Positions 2,992-54,800 of a stretch of DNA of 59,735 nucleotides are shown one piece after another. The notes beneath the pieces are model-generated. The model was not told the origin of the DNA, ran no database searches, and was given only the letters and a program-made list of their open reading frames with translations. Both the position numbers and the translations under genes were made by a program. The stretch is taken from the IMG/VR virus record IMGVR_UViG_3300028388_003770, positions 1 to 59,735 of that record. The stretch is one strand, 5' to 3'. This stretch comes from a virus (taxonomy: Duplodnaviria; Caudoviricetes). The stretch's first letter is position 1. Every line of letters begins with the position of its first letter.

Positions 2992-3261
2992 GTGGCTGAC
3001 ACTCCCGACATCTCTGAGTACGCGAAGCACACGTTCTTCCGCCTCGTGCAGGCGGCCAAGGACGACCAGCTGCTTCTCATCGCCACCACCTCCAAGAGCA
3101 CCGGGGAGCCGGTGTTCATGATCTGCGCCCGGGGACCCCACCCCGCCGACGAGAGCCTGTTCAAGGTGTACCCGCTGGGGACGGTGTTCGCCGGGGACCC
3201 GGCCGACGAGGTGAACACCCCCGAGGGTCTGCGCCCGGACACCCGACACCTCGACAGCTGA
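2992..3261 (+). CDS. Hypothetical protein
   Basis: AGGAG RBS, GTG start. Confidence 0.75.
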   Translation: MADTPDISEYAKHTFFRLVQAAKDDQLLLIATTSKSTGEPVFMICARGPHPADESLFKVYPLGTVFAGDPADEVNTPEGLRPDTRHLDS

Positions 3262-6824: not shown

Positions 6825-8036
6825 ATGACCGACAACAACATCCTGGCCCAGGCCAGCAAGAACCTGCTCCTCGTGGAGCTCAAGGGCATCGGGGGCTGGA
6901 CTCCCAACGTACGTTTGAAAGACGCCAGTGCCGTACTGGCGAAGCATTACGGCAGCTCCTCCGACAAGGCGTTCAAGGGCACGGAGAACATGCTGCCCCC
7001 GCCCCACGACGAGGAGTTCAAGGAGCTGAAGGCGGCGTTCGGTGCCGTGCGCCAGGCCTTCTACGCCCACACCATGCCGTTCGGTTCCACGGTGGATGCC
7101 AAGTCCGGAAAGGTTCGGGCCGAGGGCAAGCGCGCCGTGGTCGCCAGCAAGATCGCCGACGGCAGCTTCTTCGCCCTGATGGACGGGCTCCAGGGTGGCC
7201 TGGCGCAGACTCGGGAGCGCTTCGCCGAGGTGCTGCCCACCCGAGTGGCGACGATAAGGGCCGAGGCGGCGCTGGGCAGCCAGTTTGACGAGGACCGCTA
7301 CCCCACCCCCGAGGAAGTCCGCCGCGGGTGGTACTACGAGGCCATCGTGCCGGAGCCGATCCTCGACGCCGCCCGGGTGGCGAGCATGGGCCTGCCGCCG
7401 GAGGTGGCGCAGATGATCGAGGAGAACCTGGCCCGAAAGGTGGAGTCGCAGGTGAGCTTCGGCCAGCAGCAGCTGGTCGATGAGACGCTGCGCTACATCA
7501 AGACCATGGTCACCAACCTGACCAAGCTCAACGCCTACTTCAACGGGCAGAGCGAGGGCAAGCGCCCGGCCATCTTCGACTCTCTGGTGGACAACGTCTC
7601 CGAGAGCCTGGCCAAGCTGCGCACCTACGCCCTGCCGGGCACCGCCGAGGGTGACGCCGTCTTGAGGCTGGCCGACGGCATCGAGCAGCGCCTCGACATG
7701 GAGAGCGTCGACGCCTCCCTGCTGCGCAACGACGGCAAGATCACCGAGCGGGTGCTCAAGGGGGCGAAGGAGGCGACCAAGCTGATCGACGCCTGGGCCG
7801 GATCCGAGACGGTGTTCGATGAGCCGGCCATGCCGATGGGCACGCAGAAGATCCCGCAGCCCCCGGCGCCGGCCAAGCCCGAGCCCGAGGAGCTGGACAT
7901 GGACGCGCTGCTGGCGGGGCTGGAGGACGAGCCCCCGGCCCAGCCCGAGGAGAAGGAGGAGAAGGAGGAGAAGGAGGAGGAGGAGGACGCCACGGACGCA
8001 GACAACGACATCGACGACCTGCTCGCAGGTTGGTAA
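6825..8036 (+). CDS. DUF3150-like protein with acidic C-terminal tail
   Basis: 403 aa, helical, adjacent to AAA/vWA pair as in phage/ICE clusters. Family by resemblance only. Confidence 0.6.
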   Translation: MTDNNILAQASKNLLLVELKGIGGWTPNVRLKDASAVLAKHYGSSSDKAFKGTENMLPPPHDEEFKELKAAFGAVRQAFYAHTMPFGSTVDAKSGKVRAEGKRAVVASKIADGSFFALMDGLQGGLAQTRERFAEVLPTRVATIRAEAALGSQFDEDRYPTPEEVRRGWYYEAIVPEPILDAARVASMGLPPEVAQMIEENLARKVESQVSFGQQQLVDETLRYIKTMVTNLTKLNAYFNGQSEGKRPAIFDSLVDNVSESLAKLRTYALPGTAEGDAVLRLADGIEQRLDMESVDASLLRNDGKITERVLKGAKEATKLIDAWAGSETVFDEPAMPMGTQKIPQPPAPAKPEPEELDMDALLAGLEDEPPAQPEEKEEKEEKEEEEDATDADNDIDDLLAGW

Positions 8037-13708: not shown

Positions 13709-13885
13709 ATGGCGAGCACACCGGAGATTTTTTCACGAGGCGGCCAGCGCGCCGCGATCCAGGCCGGCAAGGAACGGGCGCCGGGCCTGCCGACTAATCC
13801 GCGCAAGGCGGCGAGCTCGATCCGGTACTGGTCCGGGTGCGCCAAGCGAGCGCTTGCGGAAGCGGCGAGGCGCGGAGCACGGTAA
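13709..13885 (+). CDS. Small hypothetical protein (58 aa)
   Basis: AGGAGG RBS. Stop TAA is part of the TAAC core of attC-like arm A. Confidence 0.6.
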   Translation: MASTPEIFSRGGQRAAIQAGKERAPGLPTNPRKAASSIRYWSGCAKRALAEAARRGAR

Positions 13886-13905
13886 CGATGAGGTGAACGG
13901 CGATG
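13881..13905 (-). repeat. Orphan attC-like half site (arm A)
   Basis: AAC-gatga-GGTGAACGGCG-ATG, same pattern as the left arms at 14247 and 14527. Confidence 0.5.
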
Positions 13906-13922
13906 CCAACAGCACAAAAGGA

Positions 13923-14276
13923 ATGACGGCTGTAGCCTACGCTACGGAGAAAATGACTATGAGTGAGAAAGTATTTAACTGGGTAACTGAACAAATGGGC
14001 AAGGGTGAACGTGCTGGAAACTTTGCGCAGGATGTCACTGTGTGGAGCGAATACGCGGTACGCGCCGCCATCCTTCGTGCTCTGGCGCTTGCCGAGAACC
14101 GAACCCGCTACGGGTGCCACTGCGACCTTGAGCCGCACATGCAGCCTGACGGCTGCGTGATTGATGATGGCAGGCCACAGGACTGCATTTATGCCGCCGG
14201 AGCGGGCCGAAAAGAGCGCTGCGAATACTGGCGGATCGTGGTGCCCAACGAGGAGGTGAGCGACGATGATGTATGA
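13923..14276 (+). CDS. Hypothetical protein, Cys-rich C-terminus
   Basis: Lower GC, CHCD...C...C...C motif. Confidence 0.7.
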   Translation: MTAVAYATEKMTMSEKVFNWVTEQMGKGERAGNFAQDVTVWSEYAVRAAILRALALAENRTRYGCHCDLEPHMQPDGCVIDDGRPQDCIYAAGAGRKERCEYWRIVVPNEEVSDDDV

Positions 14277-14369
14277 GCAATGGAGGATCAGCTACCAAAG
14301 CTCCGAGCAAGCGGCACGGGCTGCCTTCAAGGCTTGGCAGGAAGCGTCCGCTGCACCGGCTGGTTATGC
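14243..14369 (-). repeat. attC-like recombination site B (127 bp)
   Basis: GCCCAAC-5nt-GGTG AGCG ACG ... CGT c CGCT g CACC-5nt-GTTATGC. Two extrahelical bases. Minus-strand core GTTGGGC fits GTTRRRY. Confidence 0.65.
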
Positions 14370-14535
14370 CGACCGGCTTGCTATATGGCTAAAGTGTCTT
14401 ATTAGGCACAACTGGTTGTATGACGGGCCGGGGCCAAGAAACGGTCAATGGCACAGGGAATGTCAGAGGTGCGGGAAACGCCAGCACGCTAGATACGACA
14501 TGATGTACGGTTCAACCGATTGGCATGACGATTGA
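14266..14535 (+). CDS. Hypothetical protein starting inside attC-like site B (zinc-ribbon C-terminus)
   Basis: GAGGAGG RBS from the left arm. Right arm translated as SAAPAGY. CQRCG motif. Confidence 0.7.
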   Translation: MMYEQWRISYQSSEQAARAAFKAWQEASAAPAGYADRLAIWLKCLIRHNWLYDGPGPRNGQWHRECQRCGKRQHARYDMMYGSTDWHDD

Positions 14536-14647
14536 GGTGAGCGGCGATGACTACCTGTAACCATCTTTGGAGATCCATAGACTCTACCAGAGCACAATGC
14601 GCGAAGTGCGGCGAGATTCAGTCGTCCGCTCCACCGGCTGGTTCAAC
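14523..14647 (-). repeat. attC-like recombination site C (125 bp)
   Basis: GCATGAC-6nt-GGTG AGCGG CGA ... TCG t CCGCT c CACC-ggctg-GTTCAAC. Confidence 0.6.
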
Positions 14648-14813
14648 GCTTCCAGGGCTGACCGAGGACGAGCAAAAGGACTTTCGCCTGCTCGGGATGA
14701 AGCCGCTGGGCCAATGCAGTCTCGACGACTGGGAGCGCTATATGGAGCTGTCGCAGAAGGCCCTCGATGGGCTCATTGAGCAAGTCAAACTCCGGACACG
14801 GATTGACTCATAA
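14547..14813 (+). CDS. Hypothetical protein starting inside attC-like site C
   Basis: GAGGTG RBS from the left arm. N-terminal CxH..CxxC. Right arm translated as SAPPAGS. Confidence 0.7.
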   Translation: MTTCNHLWRSIDSTRAQCAKCGEIQSSAPPAGSTLPGLTEDEQKDFRLLGMKPLGQCSLDDWERYMELSQKALDGLIEQVKLRTRIDS

Positions 14814-14828
14814 CGACGAGGCGAGGAG

Positions 14829-15023
14829 ATGAAAATGAAAGATTGGGAGAAGCAGGCGCGACAGCAGTCACGCCGTGAGTGGGAGCAAGATATGCGAGGC
14901 CTTCACCATGCCCGCTGGACCGACCCAAGTGGTCGTGGATGGTGGGCCTGGGTTGTTCTCCTGGTCCTTGTGCTTCTTGGGGGCTTTGGTAGCAGCATTA
15001 TTTCGGTCTTCCTCGGAGGCTAA
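14829..15023 (+). CDS. Small membrane protein
   Basis: GAGGAG RBS, C-terminal TM helix. Confidence 0.65.
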   Translation: MKMKDWEKQARQQSRREWEQDMRGLHHARWTDPSGRGWWAWVVLLVLVLLGGFGSSIISVFLGG

Positions 15024-15025
15024 CC

Positions 15026-15253
15026 ATGGACGTCCGGACGCCCCTGCGGCGAGTGCACTACTTGAGGAGACAATCAATGGCAAGTGCTGAGAGTGACCTG
15101 CGCCACATCCACGTCAAGTGCGCCCTGCGCCGAGCGTTGGACCACCTCGAGAGGCGCGAGTGGTTCGAGGTGGTGTCCGCCTGCCAGGAGGCAGAGATCG
15201 TTGCCCGGGCCGAGTACCAGGGCCAGGAACAGGAGAGGAAACGCGCGCGATGA
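15026..15253 (+). CDS. Hypothetical protein (alternative start 15077)
   Basis: GGAGG RBS, ATGA coupling to polA. Confidence 0.65.
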   Translation: MDVRTPLRRVHYLRRQSMASAESDLRHIHVKCALRRALDHLERREWFEVVSACQEAEIVARAEYQGQEQERKRAR

Positions 15254-17196
15254 CACCGATCTTTCTCGACTACGAGACGTTCTGGGACGTCGGCTACACG
15301 CTGAGCAAGCTCACGCCCTTGGAGTACCTGACCGACGAGCGCTTCGAGCTGCAGACCTGCTCGACCATCGTCGGTAGGGGCGAGCCCGTGTTCACCGTGG
15401 GGTTCGACGAGACCGCCGAGTACCTGCGATCGCTGGACATGAGCGACGCCATTGTCGTGGCCCACAACGGCAATGAGTTCGACCACATGATCTCCCACTG
15501 GATGATCGGGCTCCGGCCCCGGATGTGGGGCGACACGCTGGCGATGGCCCGGCCCCACCACGCCAAGAACCCCGGGCTCAGCCTGGCCAAGCTGGCCGAC
15601 CACTTCGGGCTGCGAACAAAGGGGTCGCTGGACTTCGTCAACCTCAAGGGGGTGCGGCTGGAGGATTTCACCGCCGCCGATCTGATGAAGATGAAGGCCT
15701 ACAACGACCTCGACGCCTTCATTCTGCGGGACCTGTTCCCGCTCCTGCTGCGCAAGACCCCGCCCGACGAGATGCGCCTGATCGACGAGACGGCGCGCAT
15801 GATCCTCGAGCCTCAGTTCGACGCCGACACCGACCTGCTGCGCCGTGGGCTCAAGGCCGAGCGGGTGCGCAAGAAGCGCCAGCTCCAGCGCCTCGCCGAG
15901 CTGCTGGACACACGGCGCACCGACGAAGACTGGGAGGTGTGCGTACGCGCCACCTGCAGCTCGCAGGCGAAGTTCAAGGCGCTTCTCACGGAGCTTGGTG
16001 TCGAGTGCCCCATGAAGCCAAGCCCGAGCGACCCCGCGAAGCGGATCCCGGCCCTGGCCAAGACCGACGAGGGCATGGCCGCGCTGCTGGAGCACGAGGA
16101 CGAGGTGGTGCGGGCGGCGGCCGAGGCCCGGCTGGGGGTGAAGTCGACCCAGCTGGAGACCCGGATCGTGCGGTTCCTCGACGCTGCCGAGCGCTGCGAC
16201 GGGAAGCTGCCGGTGCCACTGCGTTACGCCGGGGCGGACACCACCCTGCGTTTCAGCGGCACCTTCGCGCTGAACATGCAGAACCTCCCGCGGATCGGCA
16301 AGAAGCCGAAGATCTCCGACGTGCTGCGCTACAGCCTGCAGGCGCCGGAGGGGTACGTGGTGTGCGTGGCGGACCTCTCGGCCATCGAGCTGCGGGTGAA
16401 CCACTTCCTGTGGAAGGTGGAGGACACCATAGCCCGGTTCGACGCCGACCCGCAGGCGGACGTCTACAAGAGCTTCGCAGCAGAGGAGCTCTACCACATC
16501 GCCGAGGAGCTCATCAGCAAGCTGCAGAGGTTCGTCGCGAAGGTGGCCCAGCTGCAGCTCGGCTACTACTCTGGGTGGCCCAAGCTGCAGGCAGCGGCGC
16601 GGATCATGTCCGACGGCGACGTGCTGCTCGAGGACCAGGAGGCCCGGCGGATCGTCGACGCGTGGCGGGCGAAGTACAATCGGATCGTGGACGGGTGGCG
16701 GCGCCTGGGCGAGGCCCTGGAGTTCATGCACGACGGCAACGGGCTGTTCCCGATCGACGAGTGGGGGCTGTGCATCGCCTCCAAGCACGGCATCAAGACG
16801 CCCAAGGCCCTGCTGACCTACCCGCAGCTCCACCAGAGGGACGTGGAGCGGTTCGGGCGCATGCAGCCGCAGTGGTTCTACAAGTCGAGTCGCGGGATGA
16901 AGGCCGTGCACGGCGGGGTGCTGTGCGAGAACATCAGCCAGCACCTGGCCGGCCAGGTGATGAAGGACGCCATCGTGCGCTTCAGCGCCACCGGCATCCC
17001 GGCGCGCTACTGCTACCGCCCGCACCTCGCCCACCAGGTGCACGACGAGATGATCTACGTGGCCAAGGCCAAGCACGCCGACCGGGTGCTGGCCGGGATG
17101 CAAGACGCCCTGCGCGCCCGCCCCGAGTGGTGGCCGGAGCTGGTGACCTGGTCCGAGGGAGGGTACGCGGACTGCTATGGGAAGGTGGACAAGTGA
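15250..17196 (+). CDS. polA: DNA polymerase family A with 3'-5' exonuclease
   Basis: ExoI LDYET, AHNG..FD, motif A ADLSAIELR, motif B RFVAKVAQLQLGY, motif C QVHDE. Confidence 0.95.
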   Translation: MTPIFLDYETFWDVGYTLSKLTPLEYLTDERFELQTCSTIVGRGEPVFTVGFDETAEYLRSLDMSDAIVVAHNGNEFDHMISHWMIGLRPRMWGDTLAMARPHHAKNPGLSLAKLADHFGLRTKGSLDFVNLKGVRLEDFTAADLMKMKAYNDLDAFILRDLFPLLLRKTPPDEMRLIDETARMILEPQFDADTDLLRRGLKAERVRKKRQLQRLAELLDTRRTDEDWEVCVRATCSSQAKFKALLTELGVECPMKPSPSDPAKRIPALAKTDEGMAALLEHEDEVVRAAAEARLGVKSTQLETRIVRFLDAAERCDGKLPVPLRYAGADTTLRFSGTFALNMQNLPRIGKKPKISDVLRYSLQAPEGYVVCVADLSAIELRVNHFLWKVEDTIARFDADPQADVYKSFAAEELYHIAEELISKLQRFVAKVAQLQLGYYSGWPKLQAAARIMSDGDVLLEDQEARRIVDAWRAKYNRIVDGWRRLGEALEFMHDGNGLFPIDEWGLCIASKHGIKTPKALLTYPQLHQRDVERFGRMQPQWFYKSSRGMKAVHGGVLCENISQHLAGQVMKDAIVRFSATGIPARYCYRPHLAHQVHDEMIYVAKAKHADRVLAGMQDALRARPEWWPELVTWSEGGYADCYGKVDK

Positions 17197-17369
17197 CGGC
17201 CCACAAGTGGGCGCCTTATTACAGCCACACCCCCGAGGATCTGTTCCGCGGGGCCCGGCGGCGCTGCACAAAGTGTGGTGCCATACAGGAGCGCGTCGCC
17301 GACCACGCTTGGGGTCGAGTGGTGGCCCGGCGCTGGTCTCCGCCGGCGGGGCGATGTAAGGGCAAGTGA
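17193..17369 (+). CDS. Small zinc-ribbon-like protein
   Basis: GTGA overlap, CTKCG. Confidence 0.55.
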   Translation: MTAHKWAPYYSHTPEDLFRGARRRCTKCGAIQERVADHAWGRVVARRWSPPAGRCKGK

Positions 17370-33500: not shown

Positions 33501-36026
33501 CTTGACTCCGCGTTCGTCCAAGTAAGCCTGCTGTGCCTCGGCTGCGGCGTGCCGGGGCGCCACAACCCCCTCGCTGCTCGCAGCGGCTACCGTCTCCTGG
33601 GCCTCCTGGGCCTCCTGGGCCTCCTGGGCCTCCTGGGCCTCCTGGGCCTCCTGGGCCTCATACGCCTCTTTGCGCCGGGCGTTGAGCTCCTTCTTCTCCT
33701 CAGCCGAGAGCTCGTTGACGCGCTTGACCTTGCGTTCTTCCAGGTACTTTCGCCGCACCTCGGCTGCGATGCGTTGCCTGGGCGTCACAGACTCCTCGTT
33801 CCCGTCGTGGCTGATGCCCTTGCGGATGCCGATGCCCGCGGCCTGGGCCTCAGCGGCGTCGATCGTCGACCCCTCAGTGCCCTCGCGCAGTTCCTGGGCC
33901 TGAGCCGCAAAAGAACTCAGGATGCCTTTGGCCTCGGGGTGGGCCCGGCGTAGCTTCTCCAACCCCCGAACCACCTCCCTCTTGGCCAGCTCCTGGTGGG
34001 CCGATTTGAGCATCCCGGCTTTCTTCAGGGCGCGGGCCACCGAAGGGTAGCTGTTGTGCTTTCCGAGGTGCCCTCCCTTGCGGCTGGCGCGGGCGTTTTT
34101 CTCGATCGCGATACCCGGCGTCTCCATGCCGAAGGTCAACCGCACCGCAGCCTCCTCCAGAGGTGTGATGTCGGGGGTGTTGCTGAGCAGATCCTGGGCG
34201 AGGCCCACAAACGCGTCACGCACTTCGGCCGTGTCCTCCAGAACAGGGGCCTCGTCCTCCGGAGTCTGCACAACAGCCGGGGGTTTGCGCTTCACCACGA
34301 TCGTCTGCCGGGTCTCCGTGGCCGGGGTCTCCGTGGCCGGGGTCTCCGTGGCCGGGGTCTCCGTGGCCGGGGTCTCCTCCATGCCTAGCCGACGCTTGGC
34401 GTTTACCACCAGCTCGTCCATGGCCCGGGCGCTCTTACCGCGCCGCTTGTTGGCCTTGCTGTCGTAGTCCTTGAAGAACGCCCGCGCCTTGGCTTCGGCC
34501 TCCGGCGTGTCGTTGCTCAACGTCTGCAGCTTCTCGTAGAGATCCCGCACCGGCTTCATGGGGGTCGAGGGGTTGGTCTTGTTGACCGCGGCCGCCGCTC
34601 CTTCCTCGGAGAGCTCCTCCATCACGCGCTCGCTGACGGTCCTCACACGGGGCGGCAGCTTGCCGGTGGCCCGCCTGTGCAGGTCTTCGCCAACCGTGAG
34701 CTCACGCTCCACCTGCGTCTCGGGGTCGCGGAAGACTACGCCAGAAGGCTCGTTGTACGCCTGCTCGAAGGTGTCTTCGTAGCGCTTCTCAGCAGCGCGG
34801 CGCTGCTTCTCTGACAGCTCCTCGGGAACATCCAGCCCAGCAGCGAACTTGCGATGCGCAGCGTTGCGGAAATTAGTCGGCAGGCCCGCCATCAACTCCT
34901 CGGCCGTCGGCTCTGTGGGCGTCTGCTCAGGCTGCGGCTCGGGCAGGGCCCGGGGACTGAGCATCAGATTCATCGGCACCACCAGGCCCGCGCCGCCCAG
35001 GCCGCCAGCCGCGCCGGCAAAGATCGACTGGCGCTGCTCGCGCCAGAACTCCTCGGTGCCCAGCTCCTTGTTGGCGCCCAGGTACTCGAGCGGGTTCTGC
35101 AGCCCTTCCTCGGCACCCTCGGTCACCACGCTCAGACCGGTGAGCTTGCCGGCCCGGGCCAGCTTGCCACCGCGACGGCCGAACTCGGCCAGCTTCGCCG
35201 CTCCCGGGATCATCCGATCCAGCCCGGCCAGCCCATACAGGGCCAGGTCGCCCAGCCCCTCCACCGCGCCCGCGGCCAGCCCGTAGCCCCACACCTTGGG
35301 CAGACTCACCTCGCCGCCAGTGCGCGCAGCCTCCTCCACCGCTTCAGGGTAGATCTGGCCCAGCTCCTGGCCCGCCGAGTAGCCGCCGACGCCGGCCACG
35401 AAGCCGCGCTTGCCTACCTTCTCCGCGTACTCCTTGGCCGCCTCCTGGAAGCCTGCGTCCGTGAGCGTCTTGAGCCCCTTCTTGATCCCCTGCTTGGCGA
35501 TGACCCGCCCCACCAGGCCCGCGCCCAGGCCGCCGACCAGCGAGGTCGCGCCCTTGGTGGCGTGGTACTGCAGCGCATCCACCCAGTCACCGACGCCGCC
35601 CTCCTCCACGAGGTGGTCGAACTCGTACTGCGGACGCTGGTTCGCCGCCACGTCGCGCATGTTGCGGCCGTAGACCTGCAAGCCCCAGTCGCGCACGCCT
35701 TCGAGCCCCACCGTGTCGCCGACCAGGGCCGCGGCCCCGCCGCCGAGCCCCTTCAGCTCGGACCAGGCGTCGCTCAGGGCGCGGCCGGTGTCGGAGATCT
35801 GCTCGATGTCGCCGAAACGCCGGGTGTAGCTCTGGCGCAGCGTGTCATCGTCGACCTGAGCTTCTGGGCGCGCGGCGCGGGCGCGCGTGGCCCAGGCCGA
35901 GAAGTCGTCCTCGTTCGGCCCGCCGCCGTAGTTCTCGCGATAGTAGTCTGCGAGCTTGCGGTCAGGGACGTTGGGGTTGCGCGGCTTGGCAGCCTGGATC
36001 CACTCGCCGAAAGAAGGGCGGGCCAT
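33336..36026 (-). CDS. Large polyvalent/internal virion protein, N-terminal part
   Basis: Gly/Ala-rich segments, EGAEEGLQ motif, ETPAT and EAQ repeats. Confidence 0.8.
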   Translation of the reverse strand: MARPSFGEWIQAAKPRNPNVPDRKLADYYRENYGGGPNEDDFSAWATRARAARPEAQVDDDTLRQSYTRRFGDIEQISDTGRALSDAWSELKGLGGGAAALVGDTVGLEGVRDWGLQVYGRNMRDVAANQRPQYEFDHLVEEGGVGDWVDALQYHATKGATSLVGGLGAGLVGRVIAKQGIKKGLKTLTDAGFQEAAKEYAEKVGKRGFVAGVGGYSAGQELGQIYPEAVEEAARTGGEVSLPKVWGYGLAAGAVEGLGDLALYGLAGLDRMIPGAAKLAEFGRRGGKLARAGKLTGLSVVTEGAEEGLQNPLEYLGANKELGTEEFWREQRQSIFAGAAGGLGGAGLVVPMNLMLSPRALPEPQPEQTPTEPTAEELMAGLPTNFRNAAHRKFAAGLDVPEELSEKQRRAAEKRYEDTFEQAYNEPSGVVFRDPETQVERELTVGEDLHRRATGKLPPRVRTVSERVMEELSEEGAAAAVNKTNPSTPMKPVRDLYEKLQTLSNDTPEAEAKARAFFKDYDSKANKRRGKSARAMDELVVNAKRRLGMEETPATETPATETPATETPATETRQTIVVKRKPPAVVQTPEDEAPVLEDTAEVRDAFVGLAQDLLSNTPDITPLEEAAVRLTFGMETPGIAIEKNARASRKGGHLGKHNSYPSVARALKKAGMLKSAHQELAKREVVRGLEKLRRAHPEAKGILSSFAAQAQELREGTEGSTIDAAEAQAAGIGIRKGISHDGNEESVTPRQRIAAEVRRKYLEERKVKRVNELSAEEKKELNARRKEAYEAQEAQEAQEAQEAQEAQEAQETVAAASSEGVVAPRHAAAEAQQAYLDERGVKSAAHARGRSAPAPHRGAGADPAGGACRGERRQGRRARAQGAGPVAQGSRGRSVG
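33594..33657. repeat. 9-bp tandem repeat (CTCCTGGGC)x~7
   Basis: Encodes (EAQ)n. Confidence 0.9.
34310..34377. repeat. 15-bp tandem repeat (ETPAT)x4
   Basis: GGTCTCCGTGGCCGG repeats. Confidence 0.9.
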
Positions 36027-36047: not shown

Positions 36048-36992
36048 TCATCGACTTCGTCGGTGGCGCCCCCCAGCGGGCCTCTTGTAGTCCAGCGCCT
36101 GGCGCGCGAGATCCAGCTCATCACCCTCCAAGCCGAGCTTGCGCAGCTGCACGCCCAGCTGCTGCTCGTCATCGTAGGCCTGGTAGTCGCGATCATAGGC
36201 GGCGTCACGGCGGGCGCGCTCGGCCGCGATCGGGACCAGCCCGAGCCCGGCCTGCCCCAGGGCCAGCCGGTAGCGCAGCAGGTCACCGAACCCGCCGCCC
36301 CCGGTGGGGGTGTGGCGCAAGCCACCGAGCAGCCTCTCCACCCCCCTCTGGAGGTCTTTGTCGTCGGCGCGCTGCGGCGCCCGGGGGCGCGGGCGGGCCT
36401 GCGCCTGCGCCTGCGCCTGCGCCTGCGGTTGGCTGCGGCCTGCGTCGACACCGAACTGCTGAGCCACCGCCTCGCGGGCCGCCTCGCGCAGGGCCATCCC
36501 GTTGCGCAGGGAGGCCGGGATCGACGTGTCGCTCGCCTGGGGGAACATGGACTTCAGCCTGCCGAGGTCTACGCCGTAGGGAAACTGCTGCGCGGGGGCC
36601 GTAGCCCGGCCGGGGGCCTTGAGCTGGGCCGGCTCGGCCGGGGCCGGGTTCGGTCGGGTGGTCGCCGGGGTGGCGCCCTCCGGCGCGGGGGCCGGGGTGC
36701 GGCCACGGCCGCTGCGGTTGTAGGGATTGGCGTGCGCGGGCGAGCCGAACAGCCCGTAGGCGAAGCGCCCGATCGGGGCGCCGACCGTCTCGGCGGCACT
36801 GGAGGCGGCGCTGCCTACCTGCTCGCCGACGTCCGCACCGAAGGCCACGCCCCCGGCGAGCGCCCGGCGCGTCTGTGCCCCGTAACGCTCTGCAGGAGTT
36901 CGAGCGCTGTCTACGTCCTGAGCAGCTTGCTCATAGACCATCCGAGTTCGTGGGAGCTGCAGGCCATATCCTTCTTCACGGGGCACGGTCAT
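36048..36992 (-). CDS. Putative internal virion protein
   Basis: AGGAGG RBS, position before polyvalent gene. Confidence 0.7.
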   Translation of the reverse strand: MTVPREEGYGLQLPRTRMVYEQAAQDVDSARTPAERYGAQTRRALAGGVAFGADVGEQVGSAASSAAETVGAPIGRFAYGLFGSPAHANPYNRSGRGRTPAPAPEGATPATTRPNPAPAEPAQLKAPGRATAPAQQFPYGVDLGRLKSMFPQASDTSIPASLRNGMALREAAREAVAQQFGVDAGRSQPQAQAQAQAQARPRPRAPQRADDKDLQRGVERLLGGLRHTPTGGGGFGDLLRYRLALGQAGLGLVPIAAERARRDAAYDRDYQAYDDEQQLGVQLRKLGLEGDELDLARQALDYKRPAGGRHRRSR

Positions 36993-40364: not shown

Positions 40365-41516
40365 TCAGGACCGCCTGTTCACGCCGTGAGGCTTGAAGGT
40401 GAGTGCGTTGATGTCGAAGTCCGCGCCCTGCACGTTGGTCAGAGAGAACTGCCAATGCAGTGACTCCAGCTGGCGCCCGGTCGGCACCGGCACGGGGTGC
40501 AGCCCCGCTTGGGAGGGGCTCACCTGATAGCTGTGGACGTCGTCCTCGCCGTCGATAGTCACGTGCAGCTGCAGGTCACCACCGGCGCGCAGGTCCACCA
40601 CCACCGTCCCCAGGCGCGTCACCTGCTCCGCGTCCAGGTCGGTGACGCCGAACGTCAGCGTGGCGCCAATGGCGCTGCCGTCATCGTCGTCCCCCTCCAG
40701 CAGGAAGATGCCCTCGTCGGACATGCCGTAGTAGGCCCCGTTGAGCTCGACCAGCGAGTGGAAGTCGTAGTTGGTGTAGTTGGAGACGCCGCCGCCCTCG
40801 GTGTTGAGCAGCCACGCGGTGAACGCCTCCACCAGGTCGTTCAGCAGGCTGCCACGCGAGCCCAGGGCCGGGAGCTTGGCGGCGCCCGACAGGAGGTGGC
40901 CCGGGGCCAGCACGCCCGCGCCGAGCAGCGCCGGCAACACCACGGCGCCGGAGGCGACCCGCCCAGTCCGGGCCCACCCAGACACGGCCAGCGCCGGCAG
41001 CGCGGCCGATCCGCTCAGGTAGGTCCCGCGGTGCAGGGGGCCCTCGCCGAGCAGCGCCGGGAGCTTGACCGCTCCCGACAAGACATACTCGCCGGCGCCC
41101 CAGCCCGTGCCAAGCAACGCCGGGAGCTTGACCGCCCCGGAGAGCACGCGCCCGTTGTGGAGTTGGCCGGCGCCCGAGAGCCCGGGGAGGGTGACCTGGT
41201 TGTTGGGGATGATCCAGCCGGAGCCGGCCAGCGCCGGCAGCGTGGCCGAGCCACTCAGGACGTGCCCACTGTGGAGCGTGCCGGACCCGGTGAGCGGGCG
41301 CAGCACGGCCGAGCCGCTCAGGACGTACCCGCTGTGGAGCGCGCCGGACCCGGTGAGCGGGCGCAGCACGGCCCTGCCGGTGCCCATCGCCCCGGTGGTG
41401 AGCGTGCCGGACCCGGTGAGCGCGCCGAGCGCCACGGCGCCCGCCATGGCCGTCGTCTCCAGGGAGCCCGATCCGGCCAGTCCAGGAAACTCGACGTGTC
41501 CGGATAGCGTCCCCAT
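40365..41516 (-). CDS. Tail structural protein with ~16-aa Gly-rich repeats
   Basis: LSGSAxLPALxGxGxL repeats, conserved-looking C-terminus (NYTNYDFHS). Confidence 0.8.
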   Translation of the reverse strand: MGTLSGHVEFPGLAGSGSLETTAMAGAVALGALTGSGTLTTGAMGTGRAVLRPLTGSGALHSGYVLSGSAVLRPLTGSGTLHSGHVLSGSATLPALAGSGWIIPNNQVTLPGLSGAGQLHNGRVLSGAVKLPALLGTGWGAGEYVLSGAVKLPALLGEGPLHRGTYLSGSAALPALAVSGWARTGRVASGAVVLPALLGAGVLAPGHLLSGAAKLPALGSRGSLLNDLVEAFTAWLLNTEGGGVSNYTNYDFHSLVELNGAYYGMSDEGIFLLEGDDDDGSAIGATLTFGVTDLDAEQVTRLGTVVVDLRAGGDLQLHVTIDGEDDVHSYQVSPSQAGLHPVPVPTGRQLESLHWQFSLTNVQGADFDINALTFKPHGVNRRS

Positions 41517-45743: not shown

Positions 45744-46766
45744 TCAGCGGACGCGCCCTTCGCGGACAGCCTTGTTGATTTCTACCTCCAGCGCCTGGAA
45801 CTCCTCAGCTCCGATCTTGCCGCGAGCGGCTCGGCCGTAAACGTCCGAGATCTGATCCTGCGTCCAGACTCTGGGCTGCTGGCCGTCAGGAGTGCTCGCC
45901 GCTCGAGTCGTCTTGGATCTCGGCGGGGACACCTGGCTCTCCAGGGGGTCTACTACCTGGGGAGCCTGCTCATGAGTGGTCGCCGAAGCGTCACCACCCT
46001 GCTCGTCCTTGAAATTATTGAAGATTGCTGCGACGCGGTCAACGTCGAGTGCGTGCTGAGCGTCGAGCAACAGCTCCTGGCGCTTCTTGCCAGACATCCT
46101 GTCGATCTCACTGAGCCAGGTCTTCCACTCCAGAGAGTCGTTGATCGCCTGCCAGTCCACCACCTTGGCGGTCAGGTCACGGAAGAACAGCTGCTCCGCG
46201 GACAGAGTGGCGCGCTCGCCGACCTGCGTGACCTGGCCACGCATCTCGTCGATCGCTGCCATCACACCCTGCAGCTTGGCGTTGACCGCAGCGACAGCGT
46301 CGTGCGCGGCCTTGGCGGCCACGCGCTCGGTCATCCGGACCTGGTCCACGCCGAAGGACTCGACGTCTTCCTCCGTGGCTCCCTTGGGAGGCTCGGGCTC
46401 CGGCGCGGGCGGGTTCTCGATCCGGTTCAGCTGCTCCTGCATCTGCTGCAACTGCGTCTTGAGTTCGGCGTTCTCGTTGCGCGTCTCGTCCATGGCCTCG
46501 CGGTTGCGGCGCAGCTCGGCGTCGGCGTGGCCCTTGAAGGACAGGTAGCGCTGCTTCCAGGTCTCCTCGTCGCCGCCCTGATCCTGCGGCTGGGCCTGCG
46601 GCTGGGCCTGCGGCTGGGCCTGCGGCTGGGCCTGCGGCTGGGCCTGCGGCCCTGCGGAGGGGGTGGCATCGGGCTCGGCCACGGGCGTCGGCGCTCGGCT
46701 GGCCATCCGGGACTGGATGGCTTCAGCACGGTCCAGCTCGGCCTGCACGTGCTTCGGTAGACTCAT
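45744..46766 (-). CDS. Capsid scaffolding protein
   Basis: Position, WKQRY...G, coiled coil, C-terminal EI..A.REGRV. Confidence 0.8.
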   Translation of the reverse strand: MSLPKHVQAELDRAEAIQSRMASRAPTPVAEPDATPSAGPQAQPQAQPQAQPQAQPQAQPQDQGGDEETWKQRYLSFKGHADAELRRNREAMDETRNENAELKTQLQQMQEQLNRIENPPAPEPEPPKGATEEDVESFGVDQVRMTERVAAKAAHDAVAAVNAKLQGVMAAIDEMRGQVTQVGERATLSAEQLFFRDLTAKVVDWQAINDSLEWKTWLSEIDRMSGKKRQELLLDAQHALDVDRVAAIFNNFKDEQGGDASATTHEQAPQVVDPLESQVSPPRSKTTRAASTPDGQQPRVWTQDQISDVYGRAARGKIGAEEFQALEVEINKAVREGRVR

Positions 46767-51885: not shown

Positions 51886-54800
51886 TTAGAAGGCGCTGAA
51901 GTCGGCCAGGGTGATAGTTTTCGTAACGCCCCCGGCAGTGATTTTCATCATGATGTCGCCGTCGTCCCCGGAGCCGGTGCCGTTGGACTGCCAGATCAGC
52001 GAACAGCCCTCTGAGGGATCACCTGGATCGGATGACAGCTCGCTCAGGACCAGGCCCGCGTATCCTCGGGACAGCGTAGGGTGGCCGAGCCACCTTACCC
52101 CATTCGTGTTCGGCCAAAGGTTCTCGAATATTTCCCACCCGTAGGTCGAGTTGTAGCGGAACTTAGGGGACCCGCCAAGCTCAAGACTGATCCCAGCATT
52201 TTGGACGGGGCCGTTCAATGACAGGTTTCGGCTCGACCCAGTGCCAGCCGCCTCTGTCGTGATCTTGAATGTGTTCGCATCCCACTTGACTACGCCACGC
52301 TCGTAGTTACTCGCGTCCGTGTAAGCGTTGTAGATGTTGAGCGTCTGCGGGTTTGTGTCCCTACGCAGATTGACCGTGCCAGGGCTACCGGCAGCCGCCG
52401 TACCGCCAGCGATGATTACGTCACCGCCATCTCCGCCAGTGCCGCTGGTATGATCACCTGCTTCTATATAAATGTGGCCTGCTGGATTACCATAGTCTGA
52501 CGAGTTTGCGCCAAACAGCAAAAGCCTGCCAACTCCACCACTACCACTGACTCGTTGGCGAACACCTAGTTGCAGGGAGAGATTACTAGCTCCCCCCGCA
52601 GAATCTGTCGCTACAACGCAGCCACCACTGGTTATTAAGCTTTTTGCAGACACTGCATCGGCACGAACAATCGAAATCCCCCCAGTGCTTGCCTTAGTCA
52701 GGTTAAGCCGATTAGCAAAACCGCTCCCCGCAGTGATTGTTACGTCTCGCTGCGAGCTGCCCGTACCAGCTCCCTCAACACTCATCGTGAGCGTGTCGGC
52801 ATCCCAGCGCAGGAAGGCCCGCTCGTAATTGCTCGCGTCGGTATAGGTGTTGTAGAGACGAAATTCCTGGGCGTTGGTCCCGTTGCGCTGGGCCAGGGTA
52901 TTGGCGGCGTCTCGATACAGGATTACATCTAACGTCGGTCCTAGAGAAAGCGCGTTCTGGTCCTGTATCGTCCGCACATAACCATTACCGGAACGCAGCC
53001 ATATATACCCGTCACCGCTATATACACGGACATTAGCGCCCCTATTTAGATCAATGGCAGCATTGCTTCCGTCTCCAACAACGAGACTCCCGCCTTTCAC
53101 TAGCTTAAGGTGACTCGTCCCGCCCACCTGCAAATCCAGCAGCTTGCTATCCGCTGCACTCGCCGTATCCGTGATGTTGAGTTTTATCCCAGTGAAGGTT
53201 GTCGCGCCCTCGTTCCATGTGCCGGCCAGGTCCAGCAGCTTTTCGTCGGCAGTGAATGCACCCCCGGACGCGGTCAGCTTCTTTGCGGTGAAAGCCGCCA
53301 TGCCTGAGTCGTCGGCGAGCCGGGCGGCCACTGCGGGGCCGGTGCCTTTCAGCCCCGCATAGCTGGCGGTGCCCAGGCCGAACGCGATGAAACCGTTGTT
53401 GTTGCCGGTATCGGCGATGCAGACCTGGCCGGCTTTCGGGGTGTAAACCCGAGTGCCTGCGCCGCCGCCCGAATGGGACAGGAAGTCCAGCCCGCCGTTG
53501 TTCCAGAGAAGGCTCAGATTTCGGCTGGCACCCGTGCCGGCGGCCTCGGTACCGACCTTAAACGTGTCGGCCTCCCAGCGCAGGAAGGCGCGCTCGTAAT
53601 TCGAGGCGTCGGTGTAGGTGTTGTAGAGGCGGTACTCTTGGGGCCCGCCGTGAGCTGACGCCCCAGGATCTACGTATTGCTCTAGAATGCCGTCGCCACC
53701 GCAGTGAAGCTGCAATTCCGGCTGAAGGGACGCATTGTTGTCACCGTAAGACCACTCAAATGTTCCATTGCGCGGAATTCGACAATACCTTCGGTATGAA
53801 CCTAGATGCAGCAAACTACCTAAGCTGTCATCGCCCAACAGGACCGACGAGGCGTTGGAGTTTGGCCGGTAGAACTGTAGGAAACCCCCGTAGGCCTTCG
53901 CCTCGTTCTTCGCCCGGATGCGCACTCCGTTGGCGTTCGAATAATCGAGCTTGATGCCGGTGGTGGCGTTGTCGAAGTCCACGCCGTTGAGCAGGACCTC
54001 GAAATAGGTATTCCCGTCCGCGCCGATGTCCAGCAGCTTGCTGCCCAGCGAGCCGGTTCCAGCGGCCTGCTTTTCGATCTTCAGGCTTCCCTCCGCGTCG
54101 AATCCTATCGACGTGCGCTCGTAATTGCTCGCGTCGGTATAGGTGTTGTAGAGGCGGAATTCCTGGGCGTTGGTCCCGTTGCGCTGGGCCAGGGTATTGG
54201 CTGCGTCGCGGTATAGCCTGAGATCGGTACTGTTGCTGCAGTACGAATTAGCAGACCAGGCAAAGGCTCCGAGACTCCCAAGCTGTAACTCGCCGCCGTC
54301 TACATAATCAGTGAAAGCCGCTAAACCAGAAGTCCGGCCTCGATTAATGAAGACGTATCCTGACGTATGCATTTGCACCCAGCCACCTGTGAACGTGGCT
54401 GGCCACAACCCTTTGTTCGAGGCGACGCCTACATCGCCATCCTTCTGCACAATGAACGTACTTGCCCCGCCCACCTGCAAATCCAGCAGCTTGCTATCCG
54501 CTGCACTCGCGGTGTCGGTAACACTTACACCCAGTCCAGTGAAAGTGACCCCTGCATCATTCCACGTCTGCGCCAGATTGATCGTGCCACCGGTAATAGC
54601 TACCGCATCGGCATCCTGCGTAGCCATGGTGCCCAGCCCAGACTGCTGCACAAACAGATTTGCCTGCGCAGCAGTAGGCCCAGCCGAGAATACCTGCGAC
54701 ACAGCAGCAGTTAAATCAATCCCGGCGCTTCCATCCGAGGTGCTTTCAATCGTGCCGATTGTCAGTGTATCCGGGCCGCCGTCTCCTTTCGTAATCGTCC

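What the first reader, a model, noticed from the sequence alone, without database searches (positions are those of the whole stretch)
14243..14647. Integron attC-like sites embedded in phage ORFs: candidate in-frame protein-module shuffling system
Seen in sequence: two ~125-bp imperfect inverted repeats. Site B is GCCCAAC-gagga-GGTGAGCGACG (14243-65) ... CGTcCGCTgCACC-ggctg-GTTATGC (14345-69). Site C is GCATGAC-gattga-GGTGAGCGGCGA (14523-47) ... TCGtCCGCTcCACC-ggctg-GTTCAAC (14622-47). Each has AAC/GTT-type cores (GAC in the left core of C), 5-6 nt unpaired spacers, paired L boxes and two extrahelical bases. Established: this is attC architecture (R''-L''-VTS-L'-R', 57-141 bp), here with the minus strand as top strand and GTTGGGC matching GTTRRRY. 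Unlike normal cassettes, the genes run antisense to the sites and begin inside them. The left arm supplies the RBS (GAGGTG) and ATG. The ~75-80 nt loop encodes an N-terminal module. The right arm is translated as a linker in the same frame in both genes (SAAPAGY / SAPPAGS). Inference: recombination at the GTT cores would swap C-terminal modules onto N-terminal modules in frame, giving combinatorial small proteins. The phage encodes no tyrosine recombinase, so a host IntI would be needed.
Basis: partly seen in the sequence, partly recalled or inferred. Interest (0 to 1): 0.85.

Follow-up and report, generated by a model that had tools for sequence, protein, structure and literature searches.

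The report
Integron attC sites wrapped around phage gene starts
Two small neighbouring phage genes each begin inside a hairpin-forming DNA site of the kind bacterial integrons use to move gene cassettes, so each looks like a very compact mobile cassette of about 280 bases rather than part of a system for swapping protein halves.

Summary
Sites B (14243-14369) and C (14523-14647) share near-identical arms around unrelated ~75-nt interiors, and the arms carry the SD and ATG (left) and an in-frame linker (right).

I first read the hairpins as chance, because folding energies and SD occlusion are ordinary. Comparative data reversed that.
- Homologues of ORF1's N-terminal motif sit in or beside textbook attC arrays in two other IMG/VR phages.
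- A covariance model built only from those foreign sites finds the real aadA1 attC of plasmid R100. It also ranks sites C and B first and second in the whole window (17.5 and 13.4 bits; background at most 11.6).
- A second phage (G404) carries two more elements with the same arms around other N-modules.
- In 3 of 4 such genes, the heptamer at the stop codon is the reverse complement (6-7 of 7) of the gene's own GTT core. That is the closure expected of a circular cassette.

Best reading: degenerate or atypical attC sites of ~280-nt whole-gene cassettes, with the gene written on the recombinogenic bottom strand. In-frame module swapping at GTT is not supported as the main reaction. Activity is untested, and no integrase is present.

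The parts
13880..13902 (+). Half-site A. It is a 5' arm only: CGGTAAC-GATGA-GGTGAACGGCG. The stop TAA of the upstream 58-aa ORF lies in the heptamer. No 3' arm was found.
   Evidence: (D1 family). R3 gives no hit here.
13903..13926 (+). A 7-codon mini-ORF started by half-site A's SD and ATG. Its TGA overlaps the ATG (13923-25) of orf117 as ATGA.
   Evidence: Read from the sequence. Inference: termination-reinitiation, as described for short ORFs in attC sites (PMC8876359, passage).
13923..14276 (+). orf117, which reads through the 5' arm of site B (...VVPNEEVSDDDV*). No family match. GC3 is 0.63.
14243..14369 (+). Site B, an attC-like site of 127 nt. R' GCCCAAC 14243-49; spacer 14250-54; L' 14255-65 (contains the SD GGAGGTG); loop 14266-14344 (ATG plus the N1 motif of ORF1); L'' 14345-57 with two extra bases; spacer 14358-62; R'' GTTATGC 14363-69.
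   Evidence: the DNA MFE of the + strand shows these pairs; 13.4 bits, full model.
14266..14535 (+). ORF1 (89 aa). It is the N1 motif MxYEQWRISYQSSEQAARAAF..WQEA, then the linker SAAPAG, then a C/H/C/C zinc-ribbon module of a small phage family with weak DUF1660 matches. Its stop TGA lies in the spacer of site C.
14249..14528 (+). The inferred ORF1 cassette if cut at AA|C: 280 nt. Its far-end heptamer GCATGAC (14523-29) is 6/7 the reverse complement of its own R'' GTTATGC.
   Evidence: p 0.020 over 15 positions tried. The crossover rule comes from PMC5027507 passages.
14523..14647 (+). Site C, an attC-like site of 125 nt. R' GCATGAC 14523-29 (GAC, not AAC); spacer GATTGA 14530-35; L' 14536-47; loop (ATG plus 25 codons); L'' 14622-35; spacer 14636-40; R'' GTTCAAC 14641-47. 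The L box has canonical geometry: 3 bp, an extra base at 16, 6 bp, an extra T at 23, then 3 bp.
   Evidence: (17.5 bits, E 0.023, best hit in the window).
14547..14813 (+). ORF2 (88 aa). It is a CxH..CxxCG N-module, the linker SAPPAG, and then a unique C-part. It has no homologue except itself. Its stop TAA lies in half-site D's heptamer.
14808..14828 (+). Half-site D. It is 5'-arm-like: TCATAAC-GACGA-GGCGAGGAG, followed by the ATG of a 64-aa ORF. It has no 3' arm and is not complementary to R'' of site C (3/7).

Best explanation
Region 13.88-14.83 kb is a small, partly decayed array of integron-type gene cassettes in a phage that has no integrase of its own. This matches the 'CALIN' situation already reported in phages.

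Sites B and C are its attC sites, of the long-loop kind (125-127 nt), with the + strand as the recombinogenic bottom strand. The genes are unusual in being written on that same strand and overlapping the whole site:
- the upstream gene stops in the R'/spacer;
- the spacer and L' arm double as the Shine-Dalgarno sequence;
- the loop holds the ATG and the first ~26 codons;
- the L''-spacer-R'' arm is translated as an Ala/Pro/Gly linker;
- the gene's own stop overlaps the heptamer that closes the R box when the cassette is circular.

Shown: the anatomy, the likeness to real attC sites, the closure, a second phage with the same design, and atypical base composition.

Inferred: a host IntI cutting AA|C in the left arms would excise or insert whole genes of ~280 nt (ORF1 = 14249-14528). 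On the mRNA, which is the same strand, the hairpin would also occlude the SD, tying translation to the upstream gene. Whether B and C are still recombined is unknown, since each carries defects.
For: 1. Foreign context. 19 of 37 candidate stretches in IMG/VR encode ORF1's N1 motif.
- In L013 that gene lies between two attC-like sites (2879-2942 and 3160-3228).
- In L029 it follows an array of six such sites.

2. Model test. Model R3 was built only from 7 of those foreign sites.
- It finds the aadA1 attC of R100 at 41.9 bits, on the strand opposite to aadA1. That is the only hit of 13 bits or more in 50 kb of R100.
- In the whole window, both strands and filters off, its two best hits are site C (17.5 bits, E 0.023) and site B (13.4 bits, E 0.26). 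The next best is 9.7.
- Background in 73.5 kb of other phage loci reaches at most 11.6 bits. A held-out divergent true site scores 13.3.

3. Arm similarity. The arms align without gaps to the foreign attC arms.

4. Geometry. Site C has the canonical 3 bp, extra base at 16, 6 bp, extra T at 23. That spacing is the one given for aadA7-type sites in PMC5027507 passages.

5. Second phage. G404 (82.7 kb) has two more elements with the same arms around different N-modules, read in the same frame as ASARPFGSA and ASTAPPHGSD.
- Paired L-box positions and GGTT are invariant across the four, including third codon positions.
- The extra bases and the 3' spacer vary, and those changes alter amino acids.

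6. Closure. For 3 of 4 genes, the heptamer at the gene's stop is the reverse complement of its own R'': 6/7, 6/7 and 7/7, with p 0.020, 0.058 and 0.014.

7. Composition. GC3 is 0.58-0.65 here, against 0.85-0.95 in flanking genes.

8. Boundary motif. AACGANGAGG marks three successive gene boundaries. These are 3 of the 5 matches in the window, where 0.59 are expected.
Against: - The scores (13-17 bits) are far below real sites under the same model (42-72 bits).
- The narrower model R2 missed B and gave C only 7.2 bits.
- The IntegronFinder model itself could not be run.
- Folding is no better than shuffled sequence, and the + strand is not clearly more stable than the - strand.
- Site C has GAC in place of the conserved AAC and pairs only 3/7 in its R box.
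- Site B has two mismatches in the canonical L-box register.
- ORF2's cassette does not close (4/7 at best, p 0.67).
- Half-sites A and D have no partner arms.
- There is no tyrosine recombinase in the window or in the L029 and L013 records. The host is unknown.
- Genes on the bottom strand contradict the canonical cassette layout.
- Only two phages in IMG/VR carry these arms, so conservation of the arms may reflect recent common descent rather than selection.
Confidence: 0.62

Rival explanations
1. The selected function is on the mRNA. The left arm (SD plus ATG) pairs with a segment ~27 codons downstream. ORF1 and ORF2 are then translated only when a ribosome finishing the upstream gene melts the stem (translational coupling). 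The attC likeness would be ancestral or incidental.
For: - The SD GGUG pairs with CACC in the RNA MFE or centroid folds.
- orf117's stop (14274-76) lies past ORF1's ATG, and ORF1's stop (14533-35) lies inside ORF2's SD region.
- The L-box stem is invariant in four elements while the R box is poorly kept in 2 of 4.
- attC stem-loops on mRNA are reported to hinder translation, and short ORFs in them to relieve it (PMC8876359, passages).
- The N1 gene of L026 also pairs its SD with a segment after the motif. It ranks 0 of 19 against non-cognate pairs.
Against: - RNA z-scores are -1.16 and -0.18.
- Occlusion of -14..+3 by downstream sequence ranks 113th and 15th of 209 candidate starts in the same genome.
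- Cognate SD-to-downstream duplexes are no better than non-cognate ones across 18 related loci.
- This reading does not explain the conserved GTT, the fixed 5-nt 3' spacer, the positions of the extra bases, or the closure heptamers at the stop codons.
Confidence: 0.17
2. The sites work as in-frame recombination joints. Exchange at the G|TT core in the right arm joins any N-module (the loop) to any C-module, giving combinatorial small proteins.
For: - The right arm is read in one frame in all four elements.
- N1 occurs with at least 8 different C-parts. ORF1's zinc-ribbon C-module occurs in 14 proteins without N1. No hit other than ORF1 itself spans both halves.
- P0004 shares N1 plus ...APPAG and then diverges.
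- The complementarity of B's R'' to C's R' fits cassettes cut at G|TT as well as cassettes cut at AA|C.
- Synthetic attC sites do work inside peptide linkers (PMC7439510, passages).
Against: - The extra bases lie on the arm opposite the left-arm AAC. That makes the + strand the bottom strand and places the cut at AA|C, upstream of the ATG (PMC5027507 passages).
- Top-strand recombination is about 1000 times less efficient (PMC8946536, passage).
- G404's cassettes stand alone and end in a bare heptamer, which fits only the whole-gene unit.
- In most N1 proteins homology ends at residues 21-26, before any PAG.
- After PAG, P0004 continues with His, whose codon cannot start with the T of a kept GTT core (inference).
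- The junctions among L016, L018 and L022 variants show no hairpin.
Confidence: 0.08
3. There is no special element. Two neighbouring paralogous gene heads share a translation-initiation block and a linker block by duplication or gene conversion. Their partial complementarity and attC look are then chance.
For: - Other initiation blocks are also repeated in this genome: GGAGACAACCATGACTGACA and close variants at 2982, 4863 and 8322.
- 19% of other SD-start blocks pair with the right arm as well as the real left arm does.
- Folding is ordinary.
Against: - An attC model that never saw this phage puts C and B first and second out of about 119,000 positions.
- The same arms occur twice in an unrelated phage of 52.6% GC over the 5.3-kb locus fetched.
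- 3 of 4 genes show closure.
- The interiors are unrelated, which plain duplication does not explain.
Confidence: 0.08

Closest known systems
Clusters of attC sites lacking an integrase (CALINs) in temperate and virulent phages (Qi et al. 2023, PMC9892861; abstract, section 3.4 and passages read)
   Same: - attC-type sites flank small genes in a phage with no intI.
- The sites are recognisable with a covariance model.
- That paper showed 5 of 6 tested phage attC sites recombine with IntI1.
   Different: - Here the sites score weakly (13-17 bits under my proxy model).
- Each site is wrapped around a gene start.
- The genes lie on the bottom strand, which that paper does not describe in the parts I read. 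Its supplementary tables were not available to me.
Canonical integron cassette and attC, e.g. aadA1 in In2/Tn21 of plasmid R100
   Same: - R'/R'' cores, 5-6-nt unpaired spacers, and an L box with extra bases at positions 16 and 23.
- Length within 57-141 nt.
- The stop codon of a gene lies inside the site.
- The R box closes in the circular form.
   Different: - In aadA1 the gene is on the top strand and ends before or inside the site.
- Here the gene is on the bottom strand, starts inside the loop, and is translated through the second arm.
Synthetic attC sites embedded in peptide linkers and in lacZ (Nivina et al. 2020, PMC7439510; passages read)
   Same: An attC hairpin coexists with a reading frame, and one arm encodes a flexible linker.
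   Different: Those are designed sites with 3-21-nt loops, tested with IntI1. The elements here are natural, have ~75-nt coding loops, and are untested.
Short ORFs inside attC or attI (ORF-11 type) and attC stem-loops that hinder translation (review PMC8876359; passages read)
   Same: - A start codon with its own SD sits inside a recombination site.
- Termination-reinitiation occurs at cassette junctions. Half-site A's 7-codon ORF overlapping orf117's ATG looks like this.
   Different: Those ORFs are short leader peptides on the top-strand mRNA. Here the whole 88-89-aa protein starts in the site.

Membership tests
Integron attC site | Inverse core RYYYAAC and core GTTRRRY at the two ends, with the AAC/GTT triplets conserved (PMC5027507 passages). 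| tested here: inconclusive
   - B: GCCCAAC is 7/7 and GTTATGC is 6/7.
- C: GCATGAC is 5/7 (GAC, not AAC) and GTTCAAC is 6/7.
- GTT is kept in all four elements. AAC is kept in 2 of 4.
Integron attC site | R' and R'' pair to form the R box. | tested here: inconclusive
   - As they lie in the array: B pairs 5/7 and C pairs 3/7.
- In the circular form of the ORF1 cassette: 6/7 plus a G.T pair.
- G404-2 pairs 7/7 and G404-1 6/7. ORF2's cassette reaches at most 4/7.
Integron attC site | An unpaired central spacer of about 5-6 nt on each side. | tested here: met
   GAGGA/GGCTG in B and GATTGA/GGCTG in C. The 3' spacer is 5 nt in all four elements.
Integron attC site | An L box with extrahelical bases on the arm opposite the AAC of the recombined strand, at the canonical spacing. 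| tested here: met
   - C, G404-1 and G404-2: 3 bp, an extra base at 16, 6 bp, an extra base at 23.
- B: extra bases on the correct arm, but the register is shifted (17 and 22) by two substitutions.
- The same arm carries them in aadA1's bottom strand.
Integron attC site | Length of 57-141 nt. | tested here: met
   127 nt and 125 nt.
Integron attC site | Recognised by an attC covariance model. | tested here: inconclusive
   - The IntegronFinder model was not on hand.
- The proxy model R3, from 7 phage sites, was validated on aadA1 attC (41.9 bits).
- It ranks C and B first and second in the window, at 17.5 and 13.4 bits. Background is at most 11.6, a held-out true site scores 13.3, and true sites score 42-72.
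Integron attC site | Recombined by an integron integrase as a folded bottom strand. | not testable with these tools
   This needs an attC x attI or attC x attC assay.
Integron gene cassette (canonical layout) | The ORF is on the top strand, followed by its attC. | tested here: not met
   The genes lie on the strand that R3 matches, which is the bottom strand in the aadA1 control. The same holds in L029, L013 and G404.
CALIN (two or more attC sites, no integrase nearby) | At least two attC sites close together and no intI. | tested here: inconclusive
   Two sites lie 280 nt apart, and no PF00589 match is found in the complete 59.7-kb record. The result depends on accepting the weak site calls.
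SD-sequestering mRNA hairpin / translational coupling | The stem includes the SD and start, folds better than chance, and stands out among gene starts. | tested here: not met
   The SD is in the stem. However, z-scores are -1.16 and -0.18, and the ranks are 113 and 15 of 209.

The most novel reading that the evidence does not exclude
These would be a natural class of ultra-compact (~280-295 nt) 'inside-out' integron cassettes used by phages. The gene is written on the recombinogenic bottom strand, so one hairpin serves four roles at once: recombination site, ribosome-binding switch, coding sequence for an exchangeable N-terminal module, and linker. Bottom-strand cuts (AA|C) would move whole genes. 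Rarer top-strand cuts (G|TT), or recombination between the conserved arms, would re-pair N- and C-modules in frame. That would make them a natural counterpart of the synthetic attC-in-linker design, and a route by which phages and host integrons trade small early genes.
Probability: 0.15. Interest if true: 0.85.

Novelty: new variant of a known kind. Interest (0 to 1): 0.66.

Why it matters
attC sites and CALINs in phages were reported only in 2023, from 21 of 10,705 genomes (PMC9892861, sections and passages read). How genes become joined to attC sites remains unclear; I state this from my own knowledge, not from a paper read here.

Here four elements in two unrelated phages show a gene and its attC fully superimposed, on the bottom strand, with closure at the stop codon. 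If these sites are active, three things follow:
- Phage early genes of ~90 aa could be moved one by one by a host integrase.
- Standard attC finders, which expect short non-coding sites after genes, would miss them.
- Nature would have anticipated the engineered use of attC sites inside coding sequence.

If they are dead relics, they still document traffic of cassettes between integrons and lytic-type phages.

Tried and rejected
- Close relatives: none were found. blastn against phage records gave no match. DNA polymerase relatives reach at most 46% identity in viral and metagenome contigs and lack these genes.
- Rfam: nothing in the region. The 8 weak hits are all far below their gathering scores.
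- Pfam and PHROGs: nothing for ORF1, ORF2 or orf117.
- Model R1, built from B and C, finds no third copy in the window.
- My early reading, that these were duplication footprints or SD hairpins with attC at about 5%, was dropped.
- DNA of P0003, P0004 and P0021 could not be obtained.
- The genome-contig scan found only one N1 gene, in a Comamonas MAG with no R3 hit.
- A scan for the right-arm pattern in 401 genomes of that order gave only scattered 1-2-mismatch matches, at most two per genome and no clusters, in 43 genomes. A reversed-pattern control was similarly scattered. This is not informative.
- The junction among the L016, L018 and L022 C-terminal variants shows no hairpin.
- tblastn of the window's small proteins against the N1 loci found no other shared cassette genes.
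Full report
**What is there**

The window is a complete 59,735-bp IMG/VR virus record (CheckV 100%). It has about 65% GC and no close relative in the collections searched.

Two adjacent + strand ORFs, ORF1 (14266-14535, 89 aa) and ORF2 (14547-14813, 88 aa), each start 7 nt after GAGGTG.
- The block GAGGTGAGCGRCGATGA occurs exactly at both starts, with a third, 2-mismatch copy at 13890 (6 matches at up to 3 mismatches, 0.63 expected).
- About 90 nt downstream, both carry GTCCGCTSCACCGGCTGGTT (0.04 expected).
- That block is read in the same frame in both, as SAAPAG and SAPPAG.
- The ~75-nt interiors are unrelated (878 of 2000 shuffles reach the global score, 558 of 2000 the local one).

**First pass: the hairpins look ordinary**

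- Folding of the 125-127-nt sites is no better than shuffles. RNA z-scores on the + strand are -1.16 and -0.18. DNA z-scores are +0.42 and +0.52.
- The left block pairs with the right block no better than 2-19% of controls, depending on the null.
- Occlusion of the SD and start by downstream sequence ranks 113th and 15th of 209 candidate starts in this genome.
- Rfam has nothing here.
- No tyrosine recombinase is encoded (0 of 1 record, with controls 14 of 14).
- A model of B plus C finds no third copy.
- Other initiation blocks are also repeated in the genome (family D20).

At this stage I put attC at about 5%.

**Modules**

ORF2 has no homologue but itself. ORF1 is a two-part protein.

A full HMMER search of 1.84 billion representatives gave 23 proteins at E up to 0.001.
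- One is ORF1 itself.
- 8 match only residues 1 to about 34-53. This is the motif MxYExWRISYQSSEQAARAA(F/Y), often followed by WQEA and an Ala/Pro/Gly-rich stretch, then unrelated C-parts.
- 14 match only residues about 32-89. These are a 50-70-aa C/H/C/C zinc-ribbon family, of which 3 of 14 members weakly hit DUF1660.

P0004 is identical in kind through ...APPAG and then diverges. So N- and C-parts do occur in different combinations.

**The turn**

Scanning IMG/VR for the N1 motif gave 19 loci from 37 candidate stretches. I ran my rule-based attC scan over them. In the window it finds only site B, and it hits 11 of 300 shuffled genomes. It showed a cluster in L029.

L029 is a 43% GC phage early region with an SSB gene and lysis genes. 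Reading it showed textbook sites after successive small genes, for example GTCTAAC-GTCTGA-GGTAACCGGC...GGTCCGGTTCACC-GATGG-GTTGGGC. They lie just upstream of its N1 gene.

A model from four of them (R2) found a further site in L029 and two in L013. There the N1 gene (3001-3177) lies between the two sites as a cassette.

CALINs in phages, including virulent ones, are in print (Qi et al. 2023, PMC9892861; I read the abstract, section 3.4 and passages).

**Testing the window with an independent model**

R3 was built only from 7 sites of L029 and L013.

- Positive control. In plasmid R100 it finds the aadA1 attC at 41.9 bits (E 1e-9). This is the only hit of 13 bits or more in 50 kb, and it lies on the strand opposite to aadA1. 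So the model strand is the bottom strand.
- Window. Over the whole window, both strands and filters off, the two best hits are site C (14528-14642, 17.5 bits, E 0.023) and site B (14238-14374, 13.4 bits, E 0.26). Site B matches the full model with an 80-nt local insert. The next hit is 9.7 bits.
- Background. In 73.5 kb of other phage loci the best background hit is 11.6 bits. A held-out, divergent true site of L029 scores 13.3.
- Weaker results. The narrower R2 missed B and gave C 7.2 bits. True sites score 42-72 bits, so the window's sites are weak members at best.
- Family structure. The family alignment has 87.8% of cells paired and 11 of 17 pairs with changes on both sides, reached by 0 of 500 shuffles. 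That alignment is fitted to the model.

**Anatomy under the attC rules** (PMC5027507, passages read)

On the + strand the layout is R' (RYYYAAC), spacer, L', loop, L'' with extra bases, spacer, R'' (GTTRRRY).
- Site C has the canonical L box: GGT/ACC, an extra C at 16, GAGCGG/CCGCTC, an extra T at 23, CGA/TCG. Its R box is poor (GCATGAC/GTTCAAC).
- Site B has a good R' (GCCCAAC) and pairs 5/7 in its R box, but has two mismatches in the L-box register.
- The arms align without gaps to the foreign attC arms.
- The DNA MFE folds of the + strand show these pairs.

**A second phage**

Scanning IMG/VR for the left block gave at least 120 stretches, of which 80 loci were delivered. One of the 80, L102, also has the right arm followed by GTT.

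Its record (handle G404, 82.7 kb, 100% complete, 52.6% GC over the 5.3-kb L102 locus fetched) holds two such elements by R1, at 41.6 and 39.1 bits. It also holds a canonical-size attC-like site by R3 at 27.4 bits, next to a zinc-ribbon gene. A left-to-right pattern scan finds only these two in IMG/VR.

Both G404 elements start ~90-aa genes with other Cys-rich N-modules, and both translate the right arm in the same frame.

Across the four elements:
- the paired L-box positions and GGTT are invariant, including third codon positions;
- the extra bases and the 3' spacer (GGCTG, GGCTG, GTTTG, GCATG) vary and change amino acids.

That pattern points to a constraint on nucleic-acid structure rather than on protein. 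With only two lineages, recent common descent cannot be excluded.

**Closure**

If a cassette is cut at AA|C, its own R' heptamer lies at its far end. For each gene I compared the reverse complement of its R'' with the 15 heptamer positions around its stop codon.

| Gene | Heptamer at stop vs expected | Match | p |
|---|---|---|---|
| ORF1 | GCATGAC vs GCATAAC | 6/7 | 0.020 |
| G404-1 | GTTGAAC vs GCTGAAC | 6/7 | 0.058 |
| G404-2 | TCTGAAC vs TCTGAAC | 7/7 | 0.014 |
| ORF2 | best of 15 positions | 4/7 | 0.67 |

So 3 of 4 close.

For the adjacent pair B and C, this relation fits cuts at AA|C and at G|TT equally. The G404 cassettes stand alone, each ending in a bare heptamer with no second hairpin, and that fits only the whole-gene unit. 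The inferred units are 280 nt (ORF1), 285 nt (ORF2) and about 290-294 nt (G404).

Further support:
- Four successive gene boundaries carry a heptamer of the RYYYAAC type, then GA..GA, then GG. AACGANGAGG accounts for 3 boundary sites among its 5 matches, against 0.59 expected.
- Upstream stops lie in R' or the spacer, as in L029 and L013.
- GC3 is 0.58-0.65 here against 0.85-0.95 for the flanking genes.

**Mechanism**

Shown:
- the anatomy;
- the likeness to attC;
- closure;
- recurrence in a second phage;
- atypical composition.

Inferred:
- A host integron integrase acting on the folded + strand would excise or insert whole genes at the left-arm AA|C.
- The same hairpin on the mRNA would hide the SD until the upstream ribosome passes. 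This is a side effect already discussed for attC sites (PMC8876359, passages).
- Half-site A, with its 7-codon ORF overlapping orf117's ATG, looks like a leftover that still provides reinitiation.

The mosaic proteins leave this open, but nothing here requires it.

**Limits**

- No IntegronFinder model was available.
- No close relatives were found.
- No reads could be laid (none listed).
- The host is unknown.
- DNA for P0004-type genes could not be fetched.
- Paper supplements were closed, so Qi et al.'s tables of site orientation could not be checked.
- My literature check comprised three searches. None listed a natural attC that contains a gene's start and N-terminal coding region. That is not proof of absence.

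Noticed in passing
L029:1102-2656 (IMGVR_UViG_3300033416_000029): An array of six attC-like sites at 1102-1166, 1351-1426, 1704-1770, 1989-2068, 2339-2415 and 2586-2656. Each follows a small + strand ORF in a phage early region, downstream of an SSB gene, with the genes on the bottom-strand side. No PF00589 match is found in the 26-kb record.
   Followed up: yes
L013:2634-3420 (IMGVR_UViG_3300033069_001127): The N1-family gene is a cassette between two attC-like sites. The upstream 86-aa ORF reads through the whole site 2879-2942 and stops in its GTTAGGC core. A lone 3' half-site lies at about 2634-2660, and a lone RYYYAAC-type heptamer lies at the end of the next gene.
   Followed up: partly
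G404 (IMGVR_UViG_3300035150_000037): 7266-7337, 14986-15115 and 15812-15935, all minus strand: A second, unrelated phage carries two compact gene-in-attC cassettes. It also has a canonical-size attC-like site after a Cys-rich 93-aa gene.
   Followed up: yes
window 14238-14249 and the matching place before G404-2: The 7 nt before the left heptamer's AAC part are the same in both phages: GTGGTGC..AAC. Under the cassette model this stretch should belong to the upstream neighbour. Unexplained.
   Followed up: no
window 15133-15144: AGCGTTGGACCA is 11/12 complementary to TGGTTCAACGCT (14639-14650), which includes R'' of site C. It could be the far end of a 612-nt cassette holding ORF2 and the next ORFs. 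However, it lies inside a 75-aa ORF, and matches of this size are common in the region.
   Followed up: partly
19 IMG/VR loci L011-L029 and L030: The 21-28-aa N-terminal motif MxYE(A/S)WRISYQSSEQAARAA(F/Y) is kept in phages of 38-67% GC. It is joined to many unrelated C-terminal parts, and has no Pfam or PHROG name. The variants L016, L018 and L022 switch C-termini at one point.
   Followed up: partly
window 17193-17369: A 58-aa ORF overlaps the end of the DNA polymerase gene (GTGA). It is a probable paralogue of ORF1's zinc-ribbon module (hhalign E 2e-4, probability 46%) and ends in ...SPPAGRCKGK.
   Followed up: partly
window 2982, 4863, 8322: Three genes share a near-identical 20-nt initiation block, GGAGACAACCATGACTGACA (85-100% identity).
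   Followed up: no
window 33585-33674, 34310-34384, 36381-36428, 46566-46661, 40851-41441, 52238-54519: Several coding tandem or dispersed repeats: 9-, 12-, 15- and 63-nt periods, and 110-112-nt repeats about 520-1300 nt apart. They probably lie in structural genes on the minus strand.
   Followed up: no
window 14382-14412: A short AT-rich palindrome, GGCTAA...TTAGGC, inside ORF1 scores 9 bits with R3 on both strands. It encodes the conserved IWLKCL motif of the zinc-ribbon family, so it is probably a chance match.
   Followed up: partly
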